Positions 37,581-46,946 of a stretch of 64,000 bases of DNA are shown here, one piece after another. A program made the translations under genes and the position numbers. The notes beneath the pieces are model-generated. The model saw nothing but the letters and a program-made list of their open reading frames with translations, was not told where the DNA came from and ran no database searches. The DNA is from Christensenellaceae bacterium (lineage in GTDB: Bacteria > Bacillota > Clostridia > Christensenellales > CAG-138). Within the stretch, counting starts at the first letter, position 1. Each line of letters opens with the position of its first letter. The stretch lies in the NCBI GenBank assembly GCA_022510765.1, contig JAFLSU010000008.1, positions 1,991 to 65,990 of the forward strand. Direction: 5' to 3'.

Positions 37581-40013
37581 TTAAGCTATGTTCATTGCCC
37601 TGCGAAGGATGATCAGCGCATCGGTACCATCTACGATGCCGCTATTGTCAACATCCGCAAGTGCGAGCTGATCGCTCGTAAGCGCAGTTATCTGCATCGC
37701 ACAGCGCAGCGCCAGCAGTGCGTCGGAGACAGTAATGCTTCCATCCATGTCAACATCACCAAGTTCATAATCCGAACCGCCGCCAACGTAACCGGGAACG
37801 AACACATTATCCACCCAACCGCAGTCGCTTCCTCTGTCAACGCTGCCGTCCTTTGAATAGCTCCACCTGAAGGTGAAGGATCCGGTGGTCGTCGCCGTAT
37901 AGCTTACGGTTGCCCAACTCGTTTCGCCCGATATGCCCTGAACATACGCATCGTTTACATAGAACTCGAGCTTGTCGTAGTTCTGTTCGCTGCTCGTGCG
38001 CCAATCGAAGCTCATCGCATCCCCGGCGTTCATGTTTACGGTAAGCGTAAAGTAGCTTTCGGAGTTATGCACGCCCGCATTGGTGCTTCTTACGCTTGCC
38101 CTGCCCTCGTCGGACGTAGTATCGACCTCGAACGGAAAGTTGCTTGCTGAGCCGTTGAATTCGAGTGTTCCGTTTTCAACATTGAGCGCCTCGTTGAGCG
38201 ACGGCGTGTGTTTAACGAACACCTGAGCGGATGCAGAATAATCACGATTATTGATGTTGTCGTGGGCATTGACGGTAATGATCGCCGTTCCCGGTTCAAC
38301 GCCCGTAATGGTCGCATTGCGGTTATTGCCGTTTACCGCTGCTACGGAGGGGTTGGAACTCGTCCATGTCAGCTCAAAATTGTTCGCATTTTGCGGTTCA
38401 CGCACTGCATTGATGCGTGCCGATCCGCCTTCATATATCTCGATGGATCCGGGATTGAGCGAGATACTCGTTAGCGCAACGGGCTCGGGAGGTTCAGAAT
38501 TCAGAGTAATGCCATAGTACTCCAAACTGCTTGACGCACCCTGCGGAGGGTAATATACACCGTCCACGGGCTTAACCGTTATCGCACCGCCGCCTGCTAT
38601 CGAACAGCTGTTGCCGGTGAATACGAGCGGTGCAAGCCAGTTATATAAATTCTCAACGCCGTAGTATTGCTCGGGATCATATCCCTCCTGCATACGGAAG
38701 CCGTAAATCCCATCGTATTGATCGGGCGTATTTGCGGTCAATGCAATCCTGAAATTTCTCGTAAACTCGGACGCATTCTGCCCCGTTACCGTTTGGAATG
38801 CGGACGTAAAGCCCTGCCCCGCTGCCATTCTCTCAAGTAAAGCGCGGAAGGTGGGATTGCCGTACTGGGTATAGATATACTGAGCATAAAGCGAAACCTG
38901 CGCATACAGAGCCAGCCTATCGCTCATGTCCAGCCAGTCGCTCCAGTCATACATTGAAAAGCCGTTATGCAATTCCCAGTAAGGGTTGTACTCATGTTCT
39001 GCCGGCGGATTAAGCCAATCCTCGTTTTCACTGAATTTATAGTTGAGCCATGACTGGATTCTCGGCGCAACGCTGCTGCCCGGATAGCATATCTCTTCAG
39101 CCGCTGCGCTCATGCACTCGTTTATCCACGAATCGCTATAGCCGCATACGGAATAGTTGATGAGGTGCTGATACTCATGAACCATTGTGTTGTATGTACT
39201 GGTAACATCGATGATTTCTTCTCCCTGAGTGTTCACATAATATACACCCGGATAGGTATCGATGTTGAGACAGGGCATACCGTTTGATGAAATATCGGCT
39301 CCGGTAAAGAAGCCTGCAACATAACCATCGCCCGGCTGCCAGCCGCAGTCGATATTATAGTAAAGGATGTTCAGTCTTCCGTCGCCCTGCGAACCGTTGG
39401 TATGGTCGCCGAAGGAAGATTGCATGAGGTCGAACTTGGAATCGAACTCAGCTGCGCAGATATCAGCGAAGCTTTCATCTATCTCGTCAAGCGGATATAC
39501 GTTGCTCGCCGTTGAGGTTGGGGTCCAGATATAGCAGTGTTCGCCCTTTGCAAGCACTTCAAATTCAACGCGAGTGTTGGGCAAAGGACAATAGCTGGCA
39601 TAAAGATTGAAGTAATGGGTGTCCCCCACTTCGAAGGACAGCGTCTTTTCGCTGGAACCTTCCGCCGTGATGCCGTTTCTCTCGGCTTCTTCAGCAAGAA
39701 CCGAATCAATATCTATGGTATAGGGTCGATCCGAATGCTTGTTTGCACCCTCGGACGCGGTAAAATCAAAATCGATTTCGGTTTCGATAAGCCCGCTCAT
39801 ATTGCCAGTGCTTGCCGAACCGCTGTACGCGCTTGTGCCCGGGTTATAAATGACGACGTAATCGCCAGAATAGCCGTCGCTGCCGTCATCATCGATCTCA
39901 AGAGCGCCCGTATTGATGAGCTTTGATGATGTGTCCATGCTGCCCGATGCTGCAACCGGCATAATAACCATGATGAAGCAAATGCATAGCACAATGCTGA
40001 TTATTTTTTTCAT
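37581..40013 (-). CDS. Secreted Zn metallopeptidase (M30-like) with Ig-like domain and C-terminal type I dockerin
   Basis: Signal peptide; HEYQH...WINE zincin motif; TWTSSNPSVA Big_2 motif; duplicated GDVDMDGSITVSDA / ADVDNSGIVDGTDA Ca-binding loops. Confidence 0.85.
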   Translation of the reverse strand: MKKIISIVLCICFIMVIMPVAASGSMDTSSKLINTGALEIDDDGSDGYSGDYVVIYNPGTSAYSGSASTGNMSGLIETEIDFDFTASEGANKHSDRPYTIDIDSVLAEEAERNGITAEGSSEKTLSFEVGDTHYFNLYASYCPLPNTRVEFEVLAKGEHCYIWTPTSTASNVYPLDEIDESFADICAAEFDSKFDLMQSSFGDHTNGSQGDGRLNILYYNIDCGWQPGDGYVAGFFTGADISSNGMPCLNIDTYPGVYYVNTQGEEIIDVTSTYNTMVHEYQHLINYSVCGYSDSWINECMSAAAEEICYPGSSVAPRIQSWLNYKFSENEDWLNPPAEHEYNPYWELHNGFSMYDWSDWLDMSDRLALYAQVSLYAQYIYTQYGNPTFRALLERMAAGQGFTSAFQTVTGQNASEFTRNFRIALTANTPDQYDGIYGFRMQEGYDPEQYYGVENLYNWLAPLVFTGNSCSIAGGGAITVKPVDGVYYPPQGASSSLEYYGITLNSEPPEPVALTSISLNPGSIEIYEGGSARINAVREPQNANNFELTWTSSNPSVAAVNGNNRNATITGVEPGTAIITVNAHDNINNRDYSASAQVFVKHTPSLNEALNVENGTLEFNGSASNFPFEVDTTSDEGRASVRSTNAGVHNSESYFTLTVNMNAGDAMSFDWRTSSEQNYDKLEFYVNDAYVQGISGETSWATVSYTATTTGSFTFRWSYSKDGSVDRGSDCGWVDNVFVPGYVGGGSDYELGDVDMDGSITVSDALLALRCAMQITALTSDQLALADVDNSGIVDGTDALIILRRAMNIA

Positions 40014-41724: not shown

Positions 41725-43017
41725 CTATTCCTCACAGAAGTACCTAAGCACAAGTTCATTTATTGATGCCTGATCCCTTGCACCCATGGTTTCACGGCTC
41801 GAATGCATAGCAAGCATCGGTACGCCTATGTCCGCTGTACTCATGCCGAGCTGAGATGCCGCATAGGAGCCGAGCGTTCCGCCGCCGCGCATATCGGGAC
41901 GGTTCATATAGCGCTGATATGGAATTTCATATTTTTTGCACAACCCCTCAATGATTCCTATGCCGACCGCTTCGGTCGCATAACGCTGCTCATAATTCAT
42001 CTTTAGCGCAACACCTTTGTTCATGACCGCATTGCATGAGTTATCCGCAAGCTCCCCATGATTTGGATGCTTTGAATGAGCGACGTCGCAGGAAAGCATA
42101 AAACCGGATGTGAGTGAATCGATGAATTCAGCACGGCTTGATCCGAGTGCAATGGCAATCTTTTCAAGCATCATGCCCAGGGTCGCACTATCCGCGCCCT
42201 GCTTCGTACCGGAGCCGACCTCCTCATTGTCAAAGAGTATCGCAGCAGTTATGCCATGCTTGCGTTCACACTTTGCAATGCCCGCAAGGATAGCAAAGGT
42301 CGAAGTAAGGTTATCAAGGCGCGGCGAAGTCAAAATGCTCTCGTCAAATCCGCAGAGAATCGGCTTCTCGGCATTGTAAAGGCATAGATCATAGCTCAAT
42401 ATGCTCTCCGGTTCTACGCCCATAAGTTCAGCAAGCTTTCTCACAAAGAAACCGTCCTTATTAAACTCACCCTCTATAGTAGCAGCTATCGGAAGCATAT
42501 CCTTGTTAGGATTTAGTTCAACTCCTTTGTTTACATTGCGGTTCATATGTATTGCGAGATTGGGTATCGTAAGTATCGGTTTTACAAAATTTACAAGCCT
42601 GCGCTCGGGCTCAAGTACGTTCTCAGTCTTGACGGTGACTACGCCCGCTGCGGAAAGGGGTCTATCGAGCCATGTATTATGAATCATTCCTCCATAGGGT
42701 TCGATGCTTATCTTTAAGCAATCGCCCGCGACCTGCTCGGGATTGGGTTTGATATAATAGCATGGCCAGTCGGTATGGCTGGCAGCAAGGCGGAATCCTT
42801 CGCCGGGCGTATATTCAGAGCCCACGTGGAACGCAAGCAGCATGGTTCCAAAGCATTTAACATAGTAATTGCGCCCGCGCTCCAAGCTCCAAGCTTTGCT
42901 CTGCTCCAAGAAAGTAAACCCTTCCGCATCAAGAAGGCGCATCGCCTCCTCCGCCGCATGATAGGGCGAAACGGATTTTTCAAGAAGCGAGATAAGACCA
43001 TTGATATCGTTCTTCAT
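41725..43017 (-). CDS. M18 family (aspartyl) aminopeptidase
   Basis: SHTDWP, RLDNL, FDNEEVGS, DVAH, GGGTLG, LAMHSSRE; GGAGG before ATG 43017. Confidence 0.93.
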   Translation of the reverse strand: MKNDINGLISLLEKSVSPYHAAEEAMRLLDAEGFTFLEQSKAWSLERGRNYYVKCFGTMLLAFHVGSEYTPGEGFRLAASHTDWPCYYIKPNPEQVAGDCLKISIEPYGGMIHNTWLDRPLSAAGVVTVKTENVLEPERRLVNFVKPILTIPNLAIHMNRNVNKGVELNPNKDMLPIAATIEGEFNKDGFFVRKLAELMGVEPESILSYDLCLYNAEKPILCGFDESILTSPRLDNLTSTFAILAGIAKCERKHGITAAILFDNEEVGSGTKQGADSATLGMMLEKIAIALGSSRAEFIDSLTSGFMLSCDVAHSKHPNHGELADNSCNAVMNKGVALKMNYEQRYATEAVGIGIIEGLCKKYEIPYQRYMNRPDMRGGGTLGSYAASQLGMSTADIGVPMLAMHSSRETMGARDQASINELVLRYFCEE

Positions 43018-43048
43018 AATTTCCTCCGAAGGTATTATTAGCATAACA

Positions 43049-43077
43049 ATTATAGTGTGTGTCAAGACCATTGTCAA
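43049..43077 (-). promoter_or_regulatory. Consensus sigma-A promoter for the M18 gene
   Basis: Minus strand TTGACA-17 bp-TATAAT. Confidence 0.85.
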
Positions 43078-43114
43078 ACATGGACGCACCCGATAAGTGC
43101 GACCACTTAAAACT

Positions 43115-43233
43115 CAAATCTTTATTTTTGGGGCCGGATATGTTATCATTTTAGACATTATTGAACAAGGAACGGAATCGAAATGAACATTAAGCGTTTT
43201 TTCGGTGATAAGAACTTCTACAAGGCGGTGCTT
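43115..43233 (+). repeat. Left copy of a 119-bp direct repeat (MATE upstream region plus first 17 codons)
   Basis: 109/119 identical, ungapped, to 45493-45611 by hand alignment. Confidence 0.95.
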
Positions 43234-43269
43234 ATGACCATTGCGAAATGCCAAAAGCCCGAATCCTGA
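43183..43269 (+). pseudogene. Truncated duplicate of the MATE gene 5' end (28 aa)
   Basis: MNIKRFFGDKNFYKAVLMTIAKCQKPES* versus MATE MNIKRFFGDKNFYKTVLAIAVPV. Confidence 0.85.
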
Positions 43270-43362
43270 CTTAATTTGCCGGGACTTCATATTCCTACAA
43301 ATACGTCAAAAATCGTTGTTGCCACATATTTAACCACAACAGCGCCAAAATTAAATATTTGT

Positions 43363-43439
43363 CAGAGGTGTTGCTCCGTTGGTACAGCGCCGCATTTGGG
43401 ATGCAGGGGTCGCAAGTTCTAACCTTGTCGCTCCAACCA
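43363..43439 (+). pseudogene. Decayed tRNA-Pro(TGG)
   Basis: 77 nt; D-loop TTGGTA, anticodon loop TT-TGG-GA (43395-43401), variable GGGTC, T-arm gcaag-TTCTAAC-cttgt, terminal ACCA; acceptor, D and anticodon stems carry mismatches. Confidence 0.8.
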
Positions 43440-43472
43440 AACTCTTTGAAATCAATTGATTTCAGAGAGTTT
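43439..43472. terminator. Palindrome between the tRNA relic and the retron 3' end
   Basis: aaactctttgaaatc-aatt-gatttcagagagttt. Confidence 0.7.
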
Positions 43473-43508
43473 TCTATACCTATTTTTTGTTTACTATAGC
43501 ATGATTTT

Positions 43509-45206
43509 TTACTCTTTGCTGTTAGAGTAGTTAGTAATAACCCTAACGATATTGTCTAACATCGGTTTAAAGTTGTCAAAGTTAATATTTCTATAATTTG
43601 ACTGAATGAAGTTAGCGAAAATTTCTTTTCCGTAATGCTTTTCTTTATCAGCCTTATCATCTTTCGAAAATGTCTTTCCGGCAATAATGTGATTCCTTAT
43701 AGATTCATCAAACAAATCTTCTATTTCACATTCTTTTTTTTCTTGCACCAATTGATGTGTTATAAGGTATAAATTGCCACCATTAATTACTCTTATCCAG
43801 CGGTACGTTTCGAAATCTTTCCTGTCAGATGGGGATGTTTTAATGTGAGAGATAAACGAACCCAAAGGTTTATCCTTGTTCGACAATTCATTATCAAATA
43901 CAAAAATCACAGGATTATAAGCTTTGTTTTTACAATCATTGCTAAATACCTTGAAATAATTTGTTAACCTCGGATTTTTATCTACAAAAAAACTATACAA
44001 ATTCTTCATCGCATCAGCACCATCTTGGCTCATGCCAAAAAAATATTTAAACCTTTTCGATCTCTTTAAAAATGCCACCTTAAACTCAAAGTGTCCTTCC
44101 GGTGTCTTTTCGATGAGTTCCGGGTATTCTAAATAAAGGTTTTTCAAAGCAGATTTTATGTACTTAACATCTGTTTTGCCCTCCGTCACAATCACCGGTT
44201 TCTCATGTGCAAAAAAGTATCGATAAAATAAAAATTTTTGATATTGTTTTTCTCGACCATTTAGATTAAACACGGAATGCTGTTGTTCAGAATCCTTGAT
44301 GTTATTGAATTTATCCAATTGATCGATAAAGGAAAACTTTCCTTCTAATTGCCTGATAGTTCCCTCGACCCCATTATTATTAAAACTTTCTTCTTTATAT
44401 AGCGAATCCGCCATTGCCCTTACTTGTTTGTAATACCTATGATCAACGCTGAGTTTTTTGTTTACAACCAGTCCCGTTACCGTTTGCCTTGAATCCCTAT
44501 ACTGAACACTCGTTTTATTAGTGTTGATTTTAAATCCTGCTCGTTCAACCTCATGGGAAAGTTCGCTGTAGAAATATTCCCATTGTTCAACAAGTCGCTT
44601 GTCATTTGTTGAAAAACTTAGGTCATCGGCATATCTCGTATAGTCCAAATGATATTTTTTAGCAAGGGCTAAAACCCTCATATCGAAGATTTGGCAAATA
44701 AAATTTGTAATGATAGGCGAAGTTGGTGCACCTTGCGGCAACTTTCCCTGATAGCATGTTAACTGAGCCATAACAATCGCCAGGTCGTGAGGTAGTGCGA
44801 AATCGCGGTTTTTTTCAAAGAATCCATACACTCTGCCAAAATGGAAACTATTGAAAAAATCTTGCAGATCAATATTAGCTATGACACGTTTGTTCCTGTG
44901 TATCTCGCCATTCGTAATAATACTTTTTTCTTTTTCGAAGGCCTGTGCAATATTCGTGTGTATATTGTTTTTCTTGCGCAAAAATTGTTGGTACTGTAAA
45001 AGAACATCATAAAGTTTTTCCTGTATCTGTTTGAGGTCTCCTGTTGGAGCGCAAATCGTTCTTATTCCCCCAGACTTTTTAGGAATATCAAATGTTTTAT
45101 AGAAACTATCGACTTTAGCTGCATACAAAACATAAGTTAACTTGCTGTGAGGAATCTCTAATAAATCAGCTAAATCATTTCTCGTTAATATATGTTTGAA
45201 AGTCAT
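43509..45206 (-). CDS. Retron reverse transcriptase fused to an OLD-like TOPRIM nuclease (Ec67/Eco2-like)
   Basis: IPKKSGGIRTI, NGEIH (NAxxH variant), DLQDFF, LPQGAPTSP, YTRYADD, VTGLVVN; C-terminal VIVTEGKTD, FVFDNE, EIEDLF; ncRNA upstream. Confidence 0.93.
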   Translation of the reverse strand: MTFKHILTRNDLADLLEIPHSKLTYVLYAAKVDSFYKTFDIPKKSGGIRTICAPTGDLKQIQEKLYDVLLQYQQFLRKKNNIHTNIAQAFEKEKSIITNGEIHRNKRVIANIDLQDFFNSFHFGRVYGFFEKNRDFALPHDLAIVMAQLTCYQGKLPQGAPTSPIITNFICQIFDMRVLALAKKYHLDYTRYADDLSFSTNDKRLVEQWEYFYSELSHEVERAGFKINTNKTSVQYRDSRQTVTGLVVNKKLSVDHRYYKQVRAMADSLYKEESFNNNGVEGTIRQLEGKFSFIDQLDKFNNIKDSEQQHSVFNLNGREKQYQKFLFYRYFFAHEKPVIVTEGKTDVKYIKSALKNLYLEYPELIEKTPEGHFEFKVAFLKRSKRFKYFFGMSQDGADAMKNLYSFFVDKNPRLTNYFKVFSNDCKNKAYNPVIFVFDNELSNKDKPLGSFISHIKTSPSDRKDFETYRWIRVINGGNLYLITHQLVQEKKECEIEDLFDESIRNHIIAGKTFSKDDKADKEKHYGKEIFANFIQSNYRNINFDNFKPMLDNIVRVITNYSNSKE

Positions 45207-45227
45207 AGAATACGCTCCTACAGGATA

Positions 45228-45360
45228 ACAGCGTATGGCAACTCTTTACGCGGAAATTACAGCGATCTAAGAGACAAGCAATGATGGATGGACGCAAATG
45301 CCGCTACCATTTTAGTCAACGCTTGCGAAACACAAGCCCAAAATCTTGCCATACGCTTGT
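45228..45360 (-). ncRNA. Retron msr-msd ncRNA
   Basis: Perfect 12-bp inverted repeat agcgtatggcaa (45230-45241) / ttgccatacgct (45346-45357); on the transcript the 5' arm is followed by G (45345) and the stem gcttgtg-ttt-cgcaagc. Confidence 0.85.
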
Positions 45361-45364
45361 CGAC

Positions 45365-45393
45365 ATTATAACACATTTTTCTTTATTATTCAA
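45365..45393 (-). promoter_or_regulatory. Sigma-A promoter of the retron
   Basis: Minus strand TTGAAT-17 bp-TATAAT with TGn extension; predicted start (about 45358-45360) coincides with the ncRNA 5' arm. Confidence 0.85.
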
Positions 45394-45492
45394 TCGCCTG
45401 TTAAACAACGATTTATCAAATTTTCCTTTGGAATAATCTACCAATAAATATTTTATACTTGCAACCATCAATAAGCGCAATTACGCGAAACG

Positions 45493-45611
45493 CAAATCTT
45501 TATTTTTTTTGACAAATATGTTATCATCTTAGACATTATTGAACAAGGAACGGGATCGAAATGAACATTAAGCGTTTTTTCGGCGATAAGAACTTCTACA
45601 AGACGGTGCTT
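45493..45611 (+). repeat. Right (intact) copy of the 119-bp direct repeat
   Basis: Matches 43115-43233 and continues into the full MATE ORF. Confidence 0.95.
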
Positions 45612-46946
45612 GCCATCGCAGTACCCGTCATGATACAGAGCGGCATAACGCAATTTGTCAGCGTGCTCGACAACCTCATGGTGGGCAGGATCGGTACCGA
45701 ACAGATGAGCGGCGTTGCAATATCGAACCAGCTTATTTTCGTATTCAACCTGTGCATCTTCGGCGGTCTTTCGGGCGCGGGAATATTTGGAGCGCAGTTT
45801 GCGGGCAAGGGTGATTCGGACGGGATCCGCCATGTATTCCGTTTTAAGCTCATAGTTTGTATTCTAATATGTGCGTTAGGGCTTTTGGTGCTTGGGTTTG
45901 CGAATGAACCCCTTATCAACCTTTTCCTTCACGAGGGCAGCGCGGAGGGCAATCTTGTTGCAACGCTGAACTACGGCAAGGATTATCTTCTCATAATGCT
46001 TATAGGGCTTGCGCCATATGCATTGGCTCAGTGTTATGCCTCGACCCTGCGTGAATCCGGGGAAACCGTCATACCCATGATCGGCAGCGGCTCGGCGGTG
46101 CTTATAAACCTCGTGTTTAATTATTTGCTCATCTTCGGTAAACTTGGTTTTCCGGAGCTTGGTGTCAACGGCGCTGCCATAGCGACGGTCATCTCCCGCT
46201 TTGCGGAGCTTGCGATAATGGGCATCTGGGCGCATGTGCGTAGGGATCGTTTTCCATTCTTTTCTGACGCATACCGCTCACTCCGACTGCCCCGTTCGCT
46301 TGCGCGCGATATTATCATCAAGGGGATGCCCCTGCTTGCAAACGAAACGCTTTGGTCGGCTGGCATGTCGATGCTTACACAGTGCTACTCCACCAGGGGG
46401 CTTGCTGCCATTGCCGCTATCAACATAACCGGCACGGTTTCAAACCTTTTCAACGTGGTATACATGTCGATCGGCTCCAGCATAGGCATAATCGTTGGAA
46501 ACCTCCTCGGAGCGAACAAGCTGGATGAAGCGCGAGAGACCGACACTAAGATTATTTCCATGAGCGTACTTGGGTGTTTCATATTTGGCGGATTGCTTGC
46601 CATTAGCTCGGGACTCATCCCCCAGCTTTACAATACGACTGACGAAGTCAAGGGACTTGCTACCTCCTTCCTTCTCATTTGTGCGGTTATGATGCCCTTC
46701 CATGCGTTCACTCACGCCTGCTACTTTACCCTGCGTTCGGGCGGACAGACACGCATAACCATGCTTTTCGACAGTTGTTATGTATGGATCATCTGCATAC
46801 CCGTTGCGTATGTACTCAGCAGGTTTACGTCTATCGACATTGTATCCATGTACTTCATCTGCACAGCACTGGAGTTAATTAAATGCGTGATCGGATTCTT
46901 CTTTATAAAGAGCGGAAAATGGATGAAAAATATTGTTAAAACGTAA
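45561..46946 (+). CDS. MATE family efflux transporter
   Basis: About 12 TM helices, DNLMVG, LRESGET, LIFGKLGFPELGVNGAAIATVISR. Confidence 0.93.
   Translation: MNIKRFFGDKNFYKTVLAIAVPVMIQSGITQFVSVLDNLMVGRIGTEQMSGVAISNQLIFVFNLCIFGGLSGAGIFGAQFAGKGDSDGIRHVFRFKLIVCILICALGLLVLGFANEPLINLFLHEGSAEGNLVATLNYGKDYLLIMLIGLAPYALAQCYASTLRESGETVIPMIGSGSAVLINLVFNYLLIFGKLGFPELGVNGAAIATVISRFAELAIMGIWAHVRRDRFPFFSDAYRSLRLPRSLARDIIIKGMPLLANETLWSAGMSMLTQCYSTRGLAAIAAINITGTVSNLFNVVYMSIGSSIGIIVGNLLGANKLDEARETDTKIISMSVLGCFIFGGLLAISSGLIPQLYNTTDEVKGLATSFLLICAVMMPFHAFTHACYFTLRSGGQTRITMLFDSCYVWIICIPVAYVLSRFTSIDIVSMYFICTALELIKCVIGFFFIKSGKWMKNIVKT

What the first reader, a model, noticed from the sequence alone, without database searches (positions are those of the whole stretch)
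43509..45393. Apparently complete, intact Ec67/Eco2-type retron (ncRNA plus RT-TOPRIM fusion) in a clostridial chromosome
Seen: an uninterrupted 565-aa ORF with the RT core (LPQGAPTSP, YADD), the retron VTG motif, a region X variant (NGEIH for NAxxH) and a C-terminal TOPRIM-type domain (TEGKTD, DNE, EIEDLF). Upstream lie about 130 nt closed by 12-bp perfect inverted arms and a near-consensus sigma-A promoter whose predicted start falls on the 5' arm. The gene is visibly more AT-rich than its flanks. Established: RT-TOPRIM fusions define Ec67/Eco2-type retrons, which are anti-phage systems characterised mainly in E. coli. Inference: this is an expressed, single-gene abortive-infection system. 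The architecture is known, but this Firmicute member and its ncRNA may be undescribed.
Basis: partly seen in the sequence, partly recalled or inferred. Interest (0 to 1): 0.85.

Follow-up and report, generated by a model that had tools for sequence, protein, structure and literature searches.

The report
Intact type I-C2 retron, orphaned cassette
This is a genuine, apparently working copy of a known single-gene anti-phage system (a retron whose reverse transcriptase is fused to a nuclease), of a subtype already known to be common in gut Firmicutes, so it is a sound but ordinary find.

Summary
A 565-aa ORF (43509-45206, minus strand) matches PADLOC RT-Toprim_I-C end to end (809 bits) and NCBIfam retron_Ec67_fus (632.6 bits, cut-off 450). 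It aligns over its full length with the solved Eco2/Ec67 protein (E 1.5e-110). The RT and all four Eco2 TOPRIM catalytic positions are kept, but TOPRIM motif V is DNE, the published signature of subtype I-C2, not I-C1 (Eco2).

The upstream 128-nt ncRNA (45357-45230) is real. Across 50 distinct homologous ncRNAs, the a1/a2 stem pairs in 97% of cells, with compensatory changes in 12 of 12 pairs. A short msr hairpin pairs in 99%, and the branching G (45345) is invariant. A sigma-A promoter sits at a conserved distance.

The retron lies on a 2.4-kb low-GC islet flanked by 141-nt direct repeats of the MATE gene's 5' end. The islet also carries a decayed tRNA-Pro(UGG). Its closest relatives (about 80% identical, gut metagenomes and viral contigs) place the same cassette between a tyrosine integrase and an intact tRNA-Pro. 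The window's copy has lost the integrase.

The retron is probably functional (dN/dS about 0.07). I-C2 retrons in Bacillota are already catalogued, so this is a new member of a known kind. Interest is low to moderate.

The parts
43509..45206 (-). RT-TOPRIM fusion gene, 565 aa. RT residues about 1-300 (YADD 192-195, NGEIH 99-103, VTG 243-245). TOPRIM residues about 335-560 (E342, D346, D438, E440, E496).
45215..45219 (-). Ribosome-binding site AGGAG, 8 nt before the ATG.
   Evidence: read
45230..45357 (-). Retron ncRNA (msr-msd), 128 nt, from the first base of a1 to the last base of a2.
45346..45357 (-). a1, the 5' inverted arm.
   Evidence: (a1/a2 helix 97.2% paired; 12 of 12 pairs with changes on both sides)
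45345..45345 (-). Predicted branching G (priming 2'-OH). It is the first base after a1 and is invariant in 50 of 50 aligned ncRNAs.
   Evidence: invariant column G17; role inferred by analogy with Eco2 G15
45321..45337 (-). Single short msr stem-loop: 5-6 bp stem, 7-nt loop.
   Evidence: 99.3% paired; 5 of 6 pairs with compensatory change
45243..45307 (-). Approximate msd template, giving a predicted msDNA of about 60-65 nt. The 3' limit is set by the opposing invariant G at 45242. The 5' limit is inferred from the Eco2 layout, not measured.
   Evidence: for the Eco2 layout
45230..45241 (-). a2, the 3' inverted arm.
45365..45393 (-). Sigma-A-type promoter: TTGAAT, 17-nt spacer with TG, TATAAT. 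The predicted start is at about 45358-45357.
   Evidence: Position conserved: 26 of 56 distinct upstream regions have a -10 with at least 5 of 6 matches plus a -35 with at least 4 of 6, ending 15-25 nt before the branching G.
43439..43472 (.). 17-bp hairpin between the RT stop and the tRNA-like gene. It is a likely bidirectional terminator; the scan tool did not call it.
   Evidence: pair I1, 94% complementary; one search found no terminator; conserved in the 80% clade
43364..43436 (+). Decayed tRNA-Pro(UGG)-like gene, convergent with the RT gene. It is homologous to the intact tRNA-Pro that follows the RT in the closest relatives.
   Evidence: Rfam tRNA 26.4 bits, below the gathering score of 29; ARAGORN: none
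43305..45395 (.). Block of nucleotide homology (about 77%) with the cassette of the 80% clade: tRNA-Pro, hairpin, RT, ncRNA and promoter.
43093..43233 (+). Left direct repeat: the MATE promoter and the first 17 codons, running on into a 28-codon dead-end ORF (43183-43269).
45471..45611 (+). Right direct repeat, 87% identical to the left one over 141 nt (96% over a 96-nt core). It is continuous with the intact MATE gene (45561-46946).

Best explanation
This is a complete type I-C2 retron, a one-protein anti-phage system.

Shown here: the anatomy. A sigma-A promoter drives a transcript that begins at the a1 arm. Its first 128 nt fold into the retron ncRNA: an a1/a2 stem, a branching G at 45345, one short msr hairpin and a variable msd. 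The RT-TOPRIM reading frame follows after a ribosome-binding site.

Inferred, by analogy with the solved and tested relative Eco2/Ec67:
1. The RT primes on the 2'-OH of the branching G.
2. It copies about 60-65 nt of msd into msDNA.
3. The RNA-DNA hybrid stays bound and holds the TOPRIM nuclease inactive.
4. A phage factor that degrades or alters the msDNA, in Eco2 the nuclease DenB, releases the TOPRIM.
5. The TOPRIM then cuts tRNAs and other RNAs and stops translation, aborting the infection.

The cassette is horizontally acquired. It descends from retrons carried between a tyrosine integrase gene and a tRNA-Pro(UGG) gene of integrative elements of gut Clostridia. In this genome it sits alone, without the integrase and with a decayed tRNA copy. 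It lies between the M18 aminopeptidase and MATE genes, flanked by a 141-nt duplication of the MATE 5' end.
For: Protein:
- PADLOC RT-Toprim_I-C: 809 bits over residues 1-561 of 565.
- NCBIfam NF038237: 632.6 bits, cut-off 450.
- phmmer against PDB: Eco2 chains 9lm3/9i2f, E 1.5e-110, residues 7-558 against 14-578.
- AlphaFold2 model with mean pLDDT 86.7. Its five best Foldseek hits are all Eco2 chains, E 3e-46 to 2e-43, about 600 aligned columns.
- Counting along the alignment, Eco2 YADD 199-202 falls on 192-195. The residues mutated in the paper's dead-TOPRIM variant (E374, D378, D460, D462) fall on E342, D346, D438 and E440. Eco2 F46 falls on F39.
- D438-N439-E440 and E342/G343/D346 are invariant in 31 of 31 aligned relatives.
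- DxE is the stated I-C2 signature (PMC7736814, passage).

ncRNA:
- 56 further distinct ncRNAs have a perfect arm pair at the same position.
- On 50 aligned sequences the a1/a2 helix is 97.2% paired, with both-side changes in 12 of 12 pairs. The msr hairpin is 99.3% paired, with 5 of 6.
- 0 of 500 shuffles reach any of the five measures. Sliding the partners drops pairing from 88.9% to 25-54% (RNAalifold).

Selection:
- dN/dS against four relatives (three of the 80% clade plus L049) is 0.046-0.072, with synonymous sites near saturation.
- dN on the window's branch (0.063) equals that on the sister branch (0.061).
- About the first 56 nt of the ncRNA are identical to L035 (read).

Acquisition:
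- Low GC.
- Found with this protein query in 1 of 16 other genomes of the genus, and there it belongs to a different clade.
- NF038237 scores over its cut-off in 5 of 400 genomes of the class, G000 included.
- One genus genome (G012) has the aminopeptidase and MATE genes adjacent with no insert.
- 24 of the 26 loci at 78-81% identity have tRNA-Pro(UGG) after the RT: 67-102 nt after the end of the RT match in 23, and 804 nt in L114.
- An integrase lies upstream in those with enough flank.
Against: No experiment or expression data bear on this locus.

- Motif V is DxE, not the DxD of the only characterised relative. I found no paper reporting a tested I-C2 member.
- Region X reads NGEIH rather than NAxxH. 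This is shared by 21 of 96 distinct RTs.
- No retron RNA family in Rfam matched at E up to 5.
- The 194-nt leader folds no better than shuffles (z -0.46). The 128-nt ncRNA reaches only z -2.47, and its single-sequence minimum-energy fold uses an alternative pairing instead of the covarying msr hairpin.
- The predicted msDNA has no stable hairpin (DNA fold z +0.33; msd RNA z +0.39). This is family-wide: median z -0.23, and 2 of 50 below -2.
- A third hairpin at the start of msd is weak overall (61.7% paired). By my reading of the alignment, the window keeps only 3 of its 6 pairs.
- The stretch aligned to Eco2's only protein-protein trimer contact (residues 325-347) carries gaps. By my count the window is 13 residues shorter there, so the same trimer is not assured.
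- The model superposes on Eco2 with TM only 0.50 and rmsd 23 A. It has pLDDT below 50 at 85-101 and 239-249, which contain region X and VTG.
- The neighbouring tRNA has decayed and the integrase is gone, so the cassette could be on its way to loss.
Confidence: 0.8

Rival explanations
1. An orphaned, decaying remnant. The cassette was torn from its integrative element and no longer works as a defence system. The ORF is simply not yet broken.
For: - No integrase of the linked family is in the window (tblastn, no hit at E 1e-3). Only 26-28% identical ones lie elsewhere in the genome.
- The tRNA-Pro copy next to the RT has mismatches in the acceptor, D and anticodon stems. ARAGORN does not call it, and Rfam scores it below the gathering score.
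- The msd has weak folding. By my reading, the msd-proximal hairpin keeps 3 of 6 pairs.
Against: - The 565-aa frame is intact, with every residue that is invariant in 31 relatives.
- dN/dS is about 0.05-0.07, and amino-acid change on the window's branch is not accelerated (0.063 against 0.061).
- The a1/a2 arms, msr hairpin, branching G, promoter and ribosome-binding site are all intact. The msr is identical to the 80% clade although synonymous sites are saturated.
Confidence: 0.1
2. A working I-C2 retron whose output or trigger differs from Eco2. For example, it may assemble differently, cut DNA or other RNAs rather than tRNA acceptor stems, or sense a phage factor other than a DenB-like nuclease.
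For: - DxE replaces DxD at the position of the Eco2 residue D462, whose placement changes between the inactive and active states.
- The region aligned to the Eco2 trimer loop is shorter.
- msd sequences are highly variable and unstructured across the family.
- The hosts are Gram-positive anaerobes, whose phages need not encode DenB (my own reasoning, not from a call).
Against: - All metal-binding positions are conserved or conservatively replaced.
- The ncRNA layout (arm, G, short single strand, one hairpin, single strand, template) is the same as described for Eco2.
- The three DxD-type viral loci L128-L130 align into the same ncRNA family.
Confidence: 0.08
3. Not a retron: a group II intron maturase, DGR, Abi or unknown-group (UG/DRT) reverse transcriptase.
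For: Weak cross-hits, which every RT gives: group II maturase TIGR04416 at 44 bits and Drt2 at 35 bits; distant fold hits to group II, DRT and Abi RTs.
Against: - Both scores are far below their cut-offs of 300 and 390.
- No intron or other RNA family was found in 42900-45700.
- The retron models score 20-fold higher, and the ncRNA has the retron layout.
Confidence: 0.01

Closest known systems
Retron-Eco2 (Ec67), type I-C1, E. coli; structures 9LM3, 9I2F, 9I2G, 9S1F
   Same: - A single RT-TOPRIM protein downstream of its ncRNA.
- Full-length homology (E 1.5e-110; Foldseek E 3e-46, 37% identity).
- YADD, VTG, EGxxD and the metal-B glutamate are conserved.
- The ncRNA has a1/a2 arms, a branching G directly after a1 and one short msr stem-loop.
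   Different: - Motif V is DNE, not DND.
- Region X is NGEIH.
- The segment aligned to the trimer contact loop is 13 residues shorter, by my count.
- The host is a gut Clostridia lineage, not E. coli.
- The predicted msDNA has no self-complementary stretch of note.
- The trigger and substrates are untested.
Type I-C2 retrons as catalogued by Mestre et al. 2020 (PMC7736814) and the SPIRE survey 2026 (PMC13712802)
   Same: - RT fused to a TOPRIM with EGxxD and DxE.
- RT clade 8, with the single 'IC' ncRNA family.
- 97% of the 31 SPIRE candidates are Bacillota and 90% are host-associated (passages seen).
- The window fits on every point tested.
   Different: Nothing in kind. This sequence is 78-81% identical to its nearest relatives. 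It sits outside the usual integrase/tRNA-Pro setting. The papers' supplementary lists were closed, so I could not check whether this or a near-identical entry is listed.
Type XII (RT-TIR) and type XI (RT-protease) retrons, same RT clade
   Same: The RT half scores 307 and 287 bits against these PADLOC models.
   Different: The matches stop at about residue 275-357. The C-terminal half is TOPRIM, not TIR or protease.
Defence cargo at the att-proximal end of integrative elements and prophages. The Eco2 paper says type I-C retrons are often encoded on prophages.
   Same: - In 42 of 109 related loci a related tyrosine integrase lies within 1.5 kb of the retron.
- In 31 of 109 a tRNA-Pro(UGG) does.
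- 17 relatives lie on IMG/VR viral contigs.
   Different: The window's copy has neither a usable tRNA nor an integrase. It sits in a housekeeping region between 141-nt direct repeats that are not tRNA-derived.

Membership tests
Type I-C retron (Ec67/Eco2 family; NCBIfam NF038237, PADLOC RT-Toprim_I-C) | Full-length match to the curated family model, above its cut-off | tested here: met
   NF038237: 632.6 bits against a cut-off of 450, residues 3-560. PDLC02964: 809 bits, residues 1-561.
Type I-C retron | RT catalytic core YxDD | tested here: met
   YADD at 192-195, aligned to Eco2 199-202. Pfam RVT_1: 72 bits.
Type I-C retron | Retron-specific VTG triplet | tested here: met
   VTG at 243-245. 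Present in 92 of 96 distinct RTs aligned; the other four have ITG.
Type I-C retron | Retron-specific NAxxH motif (region X) | tested here: inconclusive
   The window reads NGEIH. N99 and H103 are invariant in 31 relatives, but A is replaced by G, as in 21 of 96 distinct RTs, including the whole 80% clade. The functional effect is unknown.
Type I-C retron | C-terminal TOPRIM with the invariant Glu (EGxxD), an acidic dyad in motif V and the metal-B Glu | tested here: met
   E342, G343, D346, D438, E440 and E496 are invariant in 31 of 31. They align to Eco2 E374, D378, D460, D462 and E515.
Type I-C retron | ncRNA directly upstream, with a1/a2 inverted arms, a branching G after a1 and an msr stem-loop | tested here: met
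   a1/a2 97.2% paired with 12 of 12 covarying pairs; hairpin 99.3% paired; G invariant in 50 of 50.
Type I-C retron | Single protein-coding gene, no separate effector | tested here: met
   The neighbours are an M18 aminopeptidase and a MATE transporter, and housekeeping genes beyond them.
Type I-C retron | Produces msDNA, 2'-5' branched on the G, in an RT-dependent way | not testable with these tools
   Needs denaturing PAGE and RT-DNA sequencing.
Type I-C retron | [quoted passage not shown] | not testable with these tools
   Needs plaque assays with mutants.
Subtype I-C1 (Eco2 proper) | TOPRIM motif V is DxD | tested here: not met
   DNE at 438-440. It is therefore not filed as I-C1.
Subtype I-C2 | TOPRIM motif V is DxE (signature stated in PMC7736814) | tested here: met
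   DNE is invariant in 31 of 31 close relatives. It is present in all Toprim-bearing RTs of the set except the three DxD loci L128-L130 and the aberrant L028.
Group II intron RT/maturase | Match to the maturase model, and an intron RNA around the ORF | tested here: not met
   TIGR04416: 44 bits against a cut-off of 300. No group II intron RNA in 42900-45700.
Defence-associated RTs (Drt2 and the like) | Match above the family cut-off | tested here: not met
   Drt2: 34.6 bits against a cut-off of 390.

The most novel reading that the evidence does not exclude
The tRNA-Pro(UGG)-like gene that travels with this retron may be more than a leftover of an attachment site. It may be a working part of the cassette. 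It is kept convergent with the RT in 24 of the 26 closest relatives, within about 100 nt of the end of the RT match in 23 of them. In the window it keeps a cloverleaf, with what look like compensatory changes in the D and T stems. It is about 78% identical to the relatives' copy, while synonymous sites are saturated.

Eco2's TOPRIM nicks tRNA acceptor stems, tRNA-Pro among them. A cassette-borne tRNA-like RNA could therefore act as a decoy, a sensor or a cleavage-resistant spare.

A second, separate reading: the cassette moved here without an integrase, by a route that leaves 141-nt flanking repeats.
Probability: 0.06. Interest if true: 0.65.

Novelty: new member of a known kind. Interest (0 to 1): 0.27.

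Why it matters
It does not change what is known about retrons. Its modest value has three parts.

First, it is a compact, cleanly delimited natural I-C2 retron from an uncultured gut Clostridia lineage. The promoter, 128-nt ncRNA, branching G and 565-aa protein fit in 1.9 kb. My searches found no tested member of this subtype, so the locus could be used to ask whether the Eco2 mechanism holds for the DxE subtype that dominates in Bacillota. In that mechanism the msDNA cages a TOPRIM RNase.

Second, the family alignment gives a covariation-backed ncRNA model for this group. It also shows that its msd is not a stable hairpin.

Third, the setting shows how such cassettes travel. They ride as cargo between a tyrosine integrase and tRNA-Pro(UGG), and they can be left behind as integrase-less islets.

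Tried and rejected
Steps that led nowhere or added little:
- Rfam at E up to 5 found no retron RNA family in 42900-45700. It found only the sub-threshold tRNA hit and four chance-level hits.
- The terminator scan found none, although a 17-bp hairpin is there.
- Single-sequence folding of the 194-nt leader was uninformative. The covarying structure came only from the alignment.
- A third hairpin at the start of msd, which I proposed from individual folds, was weak on the alignment (61.7% paired). I do not claim it.
I got relatives from the genome search and from metagenome and viral contigs with an alignment.
- The look-up of sequencing runs: none was listed, and no RNA holder was listed. Read laying was therefore not used, and expression is untested.
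- I looked for the source of the cassette in the same genome. The native tRNA-Pro(UGG) is at C55:233-309, next to a contig end, and its flanks share nothing with the islet.
- The 71 nt and 75 nt between the repeats and the homology block (43234-43304 and 45396-45470) match nothing else in the genome or in the loci.
- I could not decide whether the 141-nt repeats come from site-specific or from Campbell-type homologous integration.
- The three-taxon dS was saturated, so only dN could be compared per branch.
- I considered the group II intron, DGR and Abi/UG readings and rejected them.
- I did not run complex prediction. Three copies exceed its size limit, and a pass would rest on likeness to solved Eco2.
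- Literature: I saw passages, not whole texts, of PMC7736814, PMC13712802, PMC12405507 and the bioRxiv census 10.1101/2024.01.25.577267. Of PMC12916289 I saw the abstract, sections 4, 6, 10 and 13, and the passages found.
- Supplementary tables were closed. These hold the Mestre retron list, the census list of tested retrons and the SPIRE candidates, and they may contain this retron or tested I-C2 members.
- The statement that no I-C2 member has been tested rests only on search listings and the passages.
Full report
**The observation.**
The window holds an uninterrupted 565-aa ORF on the minus strand, 43509..45206. Its translation carries YADD (192-195), VTG (243-245), NGEIH (99-103), TEGKTD (341-346), DNE (438-440) and EIEDLF (494-499).

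Upstream on the same strand lie two perfectly complementary 12-nt arms, 45346-45357 and 45230-45241. They enclose 128 nt in all. A TTGAAT-17-TATAAT promoter with an extended TG lies at 45393-45365, and its expected start falls at or one base before the 5' arm. An AGGAG lies 8 nt before the ATG. GC drops to 0.31-0.41 over the element, against 0.45-0.55 in the flanking genes.

**What the protein is.**
- Pfam sees only RVT_1 (72 bits).
- PADLOC's RT-Toprim_I-C models match end to end (809 and 794 bits, residues 1-561).
- NCBIfam's retron Ec67-family fusion model scores 632.6 bits, against a curated cut-off of 450.
- The group II maturase and Drt2 models score 44 and 35 bits, against cut-offs of 300 and 390.
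- Against the PDB, the best matches are the Eco2/Ec67 chains (E 1.5e-110, residues 7-558 on 14-578).
- An AlphaFold2 model built on 31 relatives has mean pLDDT 86.7. Its five best Foldseek matches are Eco2 chains (E 3e-46 to 2e-43, about 600 aligned columns, 36-37% identity).
- The global TM-score is only 0.50, with rmsd 23 A. I attribute this to a different relative position of the two domains in a nucleic-acid-free model.
- The model's two low-confidence stretches (85-101 and 239-249) contain region X and VTG.

Counting along the alignment gives these correspondences:

| Eco2 | Window |
|---|---|
| YADD 199-202 | 192-195 |
| E374 | E342 |
| D378 | D346 |
| D460 | D438 |
| D462 | E440 |
| E515 (metal B) | E496 |
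| F46 (fingers aromatic) | F39 |

E374, D378, D460 and D462 are the four residues mutated in the published TOPRIM-dead Eco2.

**Subtype.**
Motif V is DNE. D438-N439-E440 is invariant in 31 of 31 aligned relatives of 54-78% identity. Among 96 distinct RTs from related loci, every TOPRIM-bearing one has DNE, except three viral-contig proteins of about 35% identity (DND or DAD) and one aberrant sequence. Mestre et al. 2020 state that DxE is the signature of variant I-C2, whereas Eco2 is I-C1 with DxD (passage seen). The element is thus type I-C like Eco2, but subtype I-C2. Region X reads NGxxH in the window and in 20 other sequences, including its whole sister clade. The rest have NAxxH.

**The ncRNA.**
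I collected 109 related loci: genomes of the same class, metagenome contigs, viral contigs and two others.

In the region upstream of the RT start, 56 distinct sequences besides the window's have a perfect inverted pair of at least 8 nt, with the 5' arm starting 130-190 nt before the start codon. Seven distinct upstream regions had no such pair: L025, L085, L087 and four non-TOPRIM RTs. Two had pairs elsewhere (L028, L033).

I aligned 50 of these ncRNAs, the window's among them.
- RNAalifold predicts the terminal stem and one hairpin; 15 of its 19 pairs carry compensatory changes.
- Counting a structure that I named: the a1/a2 helix is paired in 97.2% of cells, with changes on both sides in 12 of 12 pairs.
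- The msr hairpin is paired in 99.3% of cells, with changes on both sides in 5 of 6 pairs.
- None of 500 shuffles reaches any of the five measures.
- Sliding the partners by 1-3 columns lowers pairing from 88.9% to 25-54%.
- The G directly after a1 (window 45345) and the G directly before a2 (45242) are invariant in all 50. These are the 'two opposing G residues' of retron ncRNAs.

The layout is arm, G, short single strand, one short stem-loop, single strand, template. This matches the layout described for Eco2. The three DxD-type loci align into the same family.

The promoter position is also conserved. In 26 of 56 distinct upstream regions, a -10 with at least 5 of 6 matches and a -35 with at least 4 of 6 ends 15-25 nt before the branching G. 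In many, including the window, that distance is exactly 19 nt.

**Points that do not fit neatly.**
- Rfam has no match for a retron RNA here.
- Single-sequence folds are weak. The 194-nt leader has z -0.46. The 128-nt ncRNA has z -2.47 and uses an alternative pairing in place of the covarying hairpin.
- The msd is not a stable stem-loop: window z +0.39 as RNA and +0.33 as DNA. Across the family the median z is -0.23, and only 2 of 50 fall below -2.
- This departs from the textbook 'long stable msd stem-loop'. The departure is family-wide. In Eco2 the msDNA strands were seen to pair between subunits in a three-way junction rather than as hairpins.
- By my count from the alignment, the stretch aligned to Eco2's only protein-protein trimer contact (325-347) is 13 residues shorter in the window.

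**Is it alive?**
Against four relatives (L034, L046 and L047 of the 80% clade, plus L049), dN/dS is 0.046-0.072, with dS about 1.8-3.2, which is saturated. With L049 as the third taxon, dN on the window's branch is 0.063, against 0.061 on the sister branch. I see no sign of relaxed constraint. About the first 56 nt of the ncRNA (a1 through the conserved AAAAUGG segment) are identical between the window and L035, despite that saturation.

**How it most likely works.**
The anatomy above is shown. The rest is inferred from Eco2 (PMC12916289: abstract and sections 4, 6, 10; passages).
1. The RT primes on the branching G and copies the msd.
2. The msDNA-RNA hybrid stays bound and cages the TOPRIM.
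3. A phage nuclease (DenB for Eco2) starts msDNA decay.
4. The freed TOPRIM nicks tRNA acceptor stems and other RNAs, and translation stops.

I give 0.8 to 'functional I-C retron defence system'. I give about half of that to 'the same trigger logic and substrates as Eco2'.

**Setting and origin.**
- The neighbours are housekeeping genes: an M18 aminopeptidase and a MATE transporter, and further out an aminotransferase, TrkAH, pyroglutamyl peptidase, P5C reductase and DnaE. A dockerin protein is also nearby.
- The closest named DnaE relatives (60-80% identical) are from 'Clostridia bacterium', 'Clostridiales bacterium', 'Christensenellaceae bacterium' and 'Candidatus Pelethousia sp.' MAGs. 'Clostridial chromosome' therefore holds at class level.
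- The retron is sporadic. With this protein query, 1 of the 16 other genomes of the genus had a match (52% identity, a different clade). NF038237 scores over its cut-off in 5 of 400 genomes of the class, G000 included.
- The element lies between 141-nt direct repeats, 43093-43233 and 45471-45611. They are 87% identical overall and 96% identical over a 96-nt core. Both repeats are copies of the MATE promoter and first codons.
- Removing one repeat plus the insert (2,378 bp) would restore a divergent aminopeptidase-MATE pair. That arrangement is seen in genus genome G012, the only one of 15 genus genomes with the MATE gene in which the two genes are adjacent within the fetched flank.

**Relatives' setting.**
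Nucleotide homology with the 78-81% clade covers window 43305-45395 only. This clade has 26 loci. Several contig titles read 'human gut metagenome', and ten loci are IMG/VR contigs. The homologous block includes a tRNA-like sequence at 43364-43436 (+). Rfam scores it 26.4 bits, under the gathering score of 29, and ARAGORN does not call it.

In 24 of the 26 clade loci, an ARAGORN-called tRNA-Pro(UGG) lies convergent with the RT. It is 67-102 nt after the end of the RT match in 23 loci and 804 nt after in L114. Of the two without it, L050 ends at the RT stop. Upstream of the promoter, these loci carry a tyrosine integrase (Phage_integrase, 98.8 bits).

Overall, 31 of 109 loci have tRNA-Pro(UGG) within the fetched flanks, and 42 of 109 have a homologue of that integrase. 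Two further clades show the order tRNA-Pro, retron, integrase. On a FastTree of the 96 distinct RTs (midpoint-rooted; I did not print support values), the window is sister to the 80% clade, inside this integrase-linked group.

The window has no such integrase. The genome has only 26-28% identical ones elsewhere, and it has its own tRNA-Pro(UGG) on another contig. I read the islet as the att-proximal end of such an element, left or moved without its integrase. How the 141-nt repeats arose is unresolved.

**The tRNA-like gene.**
Aligned by hand to the clade's tRNA, it has mismatches in the acceptor, D and anticodon stems. It also has what look like compensatory changes in the D and T stems. It remains about 78% identical, while synonymous sites are saturated. 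Most simply, it is a recently decaying passenger. A functional link to a tRNA-cutting retron is not excluded, and I give that reading 0.06.

**Comparison and novelty.**
I-C retrons are about 11% of retrons and are often on prophages. I-C2 was defined in 2020 together with its ncRNA family. A 2026 survey lists 31 I-C2 candidates, 97% of them Bacillota and 90% host-associated, and classes them as 'known-type expansion'. NCBI already names relatives 'retron Ec67 family RNA-directed DNA polymerase/endonuclease', for example in Enterococcus faecium. My searches found no report of a tested I-C2 member, but the supplements were closed.

Noticed in passing
window 43364-43436 (+); L034 3259-3334 and relatives: A decayed tRNA-Pro(UGG) copy lies convergent with the RT gene. 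In 24 of the 26 closest relatives an intact tRNA-Pro(UGG) follows the RT, 67-102 nt after the end of the RT match in 23 of them. In two other retron clades a tRNA-Pro(UGG) lies 328-458 nt upstream of the RT start on the same strand.
   Followed up: partly
window 43093-43233 and 45471-45611: 141-nt direct repeats (87% identical; 96% over a 96-nt core) of the MATE promoter and 5' coding end flank the 2.2-kb insert. The left copy runs into a 28-codon dead-end ORF (43183-43269). Similarity fades but may continue about 50 nt further upstream. The origin is unresolved: att-like sites or Campbell-type integration.
   Followed up: partly
L034 3483-3524; L038 and L041 3669-3709; L036, L114: In the 80% clade, partial copies of the 5' 43 nt of a tRNA-Pro lie upstream of the complete tRNA. 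They are 83-93% identical to this genome's native tRNA-Pro (93% in L034, L039 and L114). The complete tRNA next to the retron is only 74-79% identical to it. This suggests that the complete tRNA belongs to the element and that the host gene was interrupted.
   Followed up: no
G000 contig C55:233-309: The genome's own tRNA-Pro(UGG) sits 232 nt from a contig end, with its 3' end facing the break. An unassembled element could lie there.
   Followed up: partly
L002 (G013, same genus): A second I-C2 retron in the genus is 52% identical, from a different clade and at a different site. It has its own a1/a2 arms. This points to independent acquisitions within one genus.
   Followed up: partly
alignment A4, columns 62-170: Across 50 I-C ncRNAs the msd is hypervariable in sequence and length (60-91 nt) and is not more stable than shuffles (median z -0.23). 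Its last 10 nt before a2 (consensus GCAUAAUGAG) are nearly invariant. The 5' end of the msDNA would therefore be conserved.
   Followed up: partly
window 37581-40013 (-): An 810-aa secreted protein with a Big_2 domain and a C-terminal type I dockerin domain. This hints at a cellulosome-like surface system in this small genome (1.87 Mb).
   Followed up: no
L056, L064, L082 and relatives, 20-45 nt upstream of a1: In some clades the promoter lies further upstream, and a short GC-rich hairpin sits between it and a1. This is a different 5' leader from the window's.
   Followed up: no
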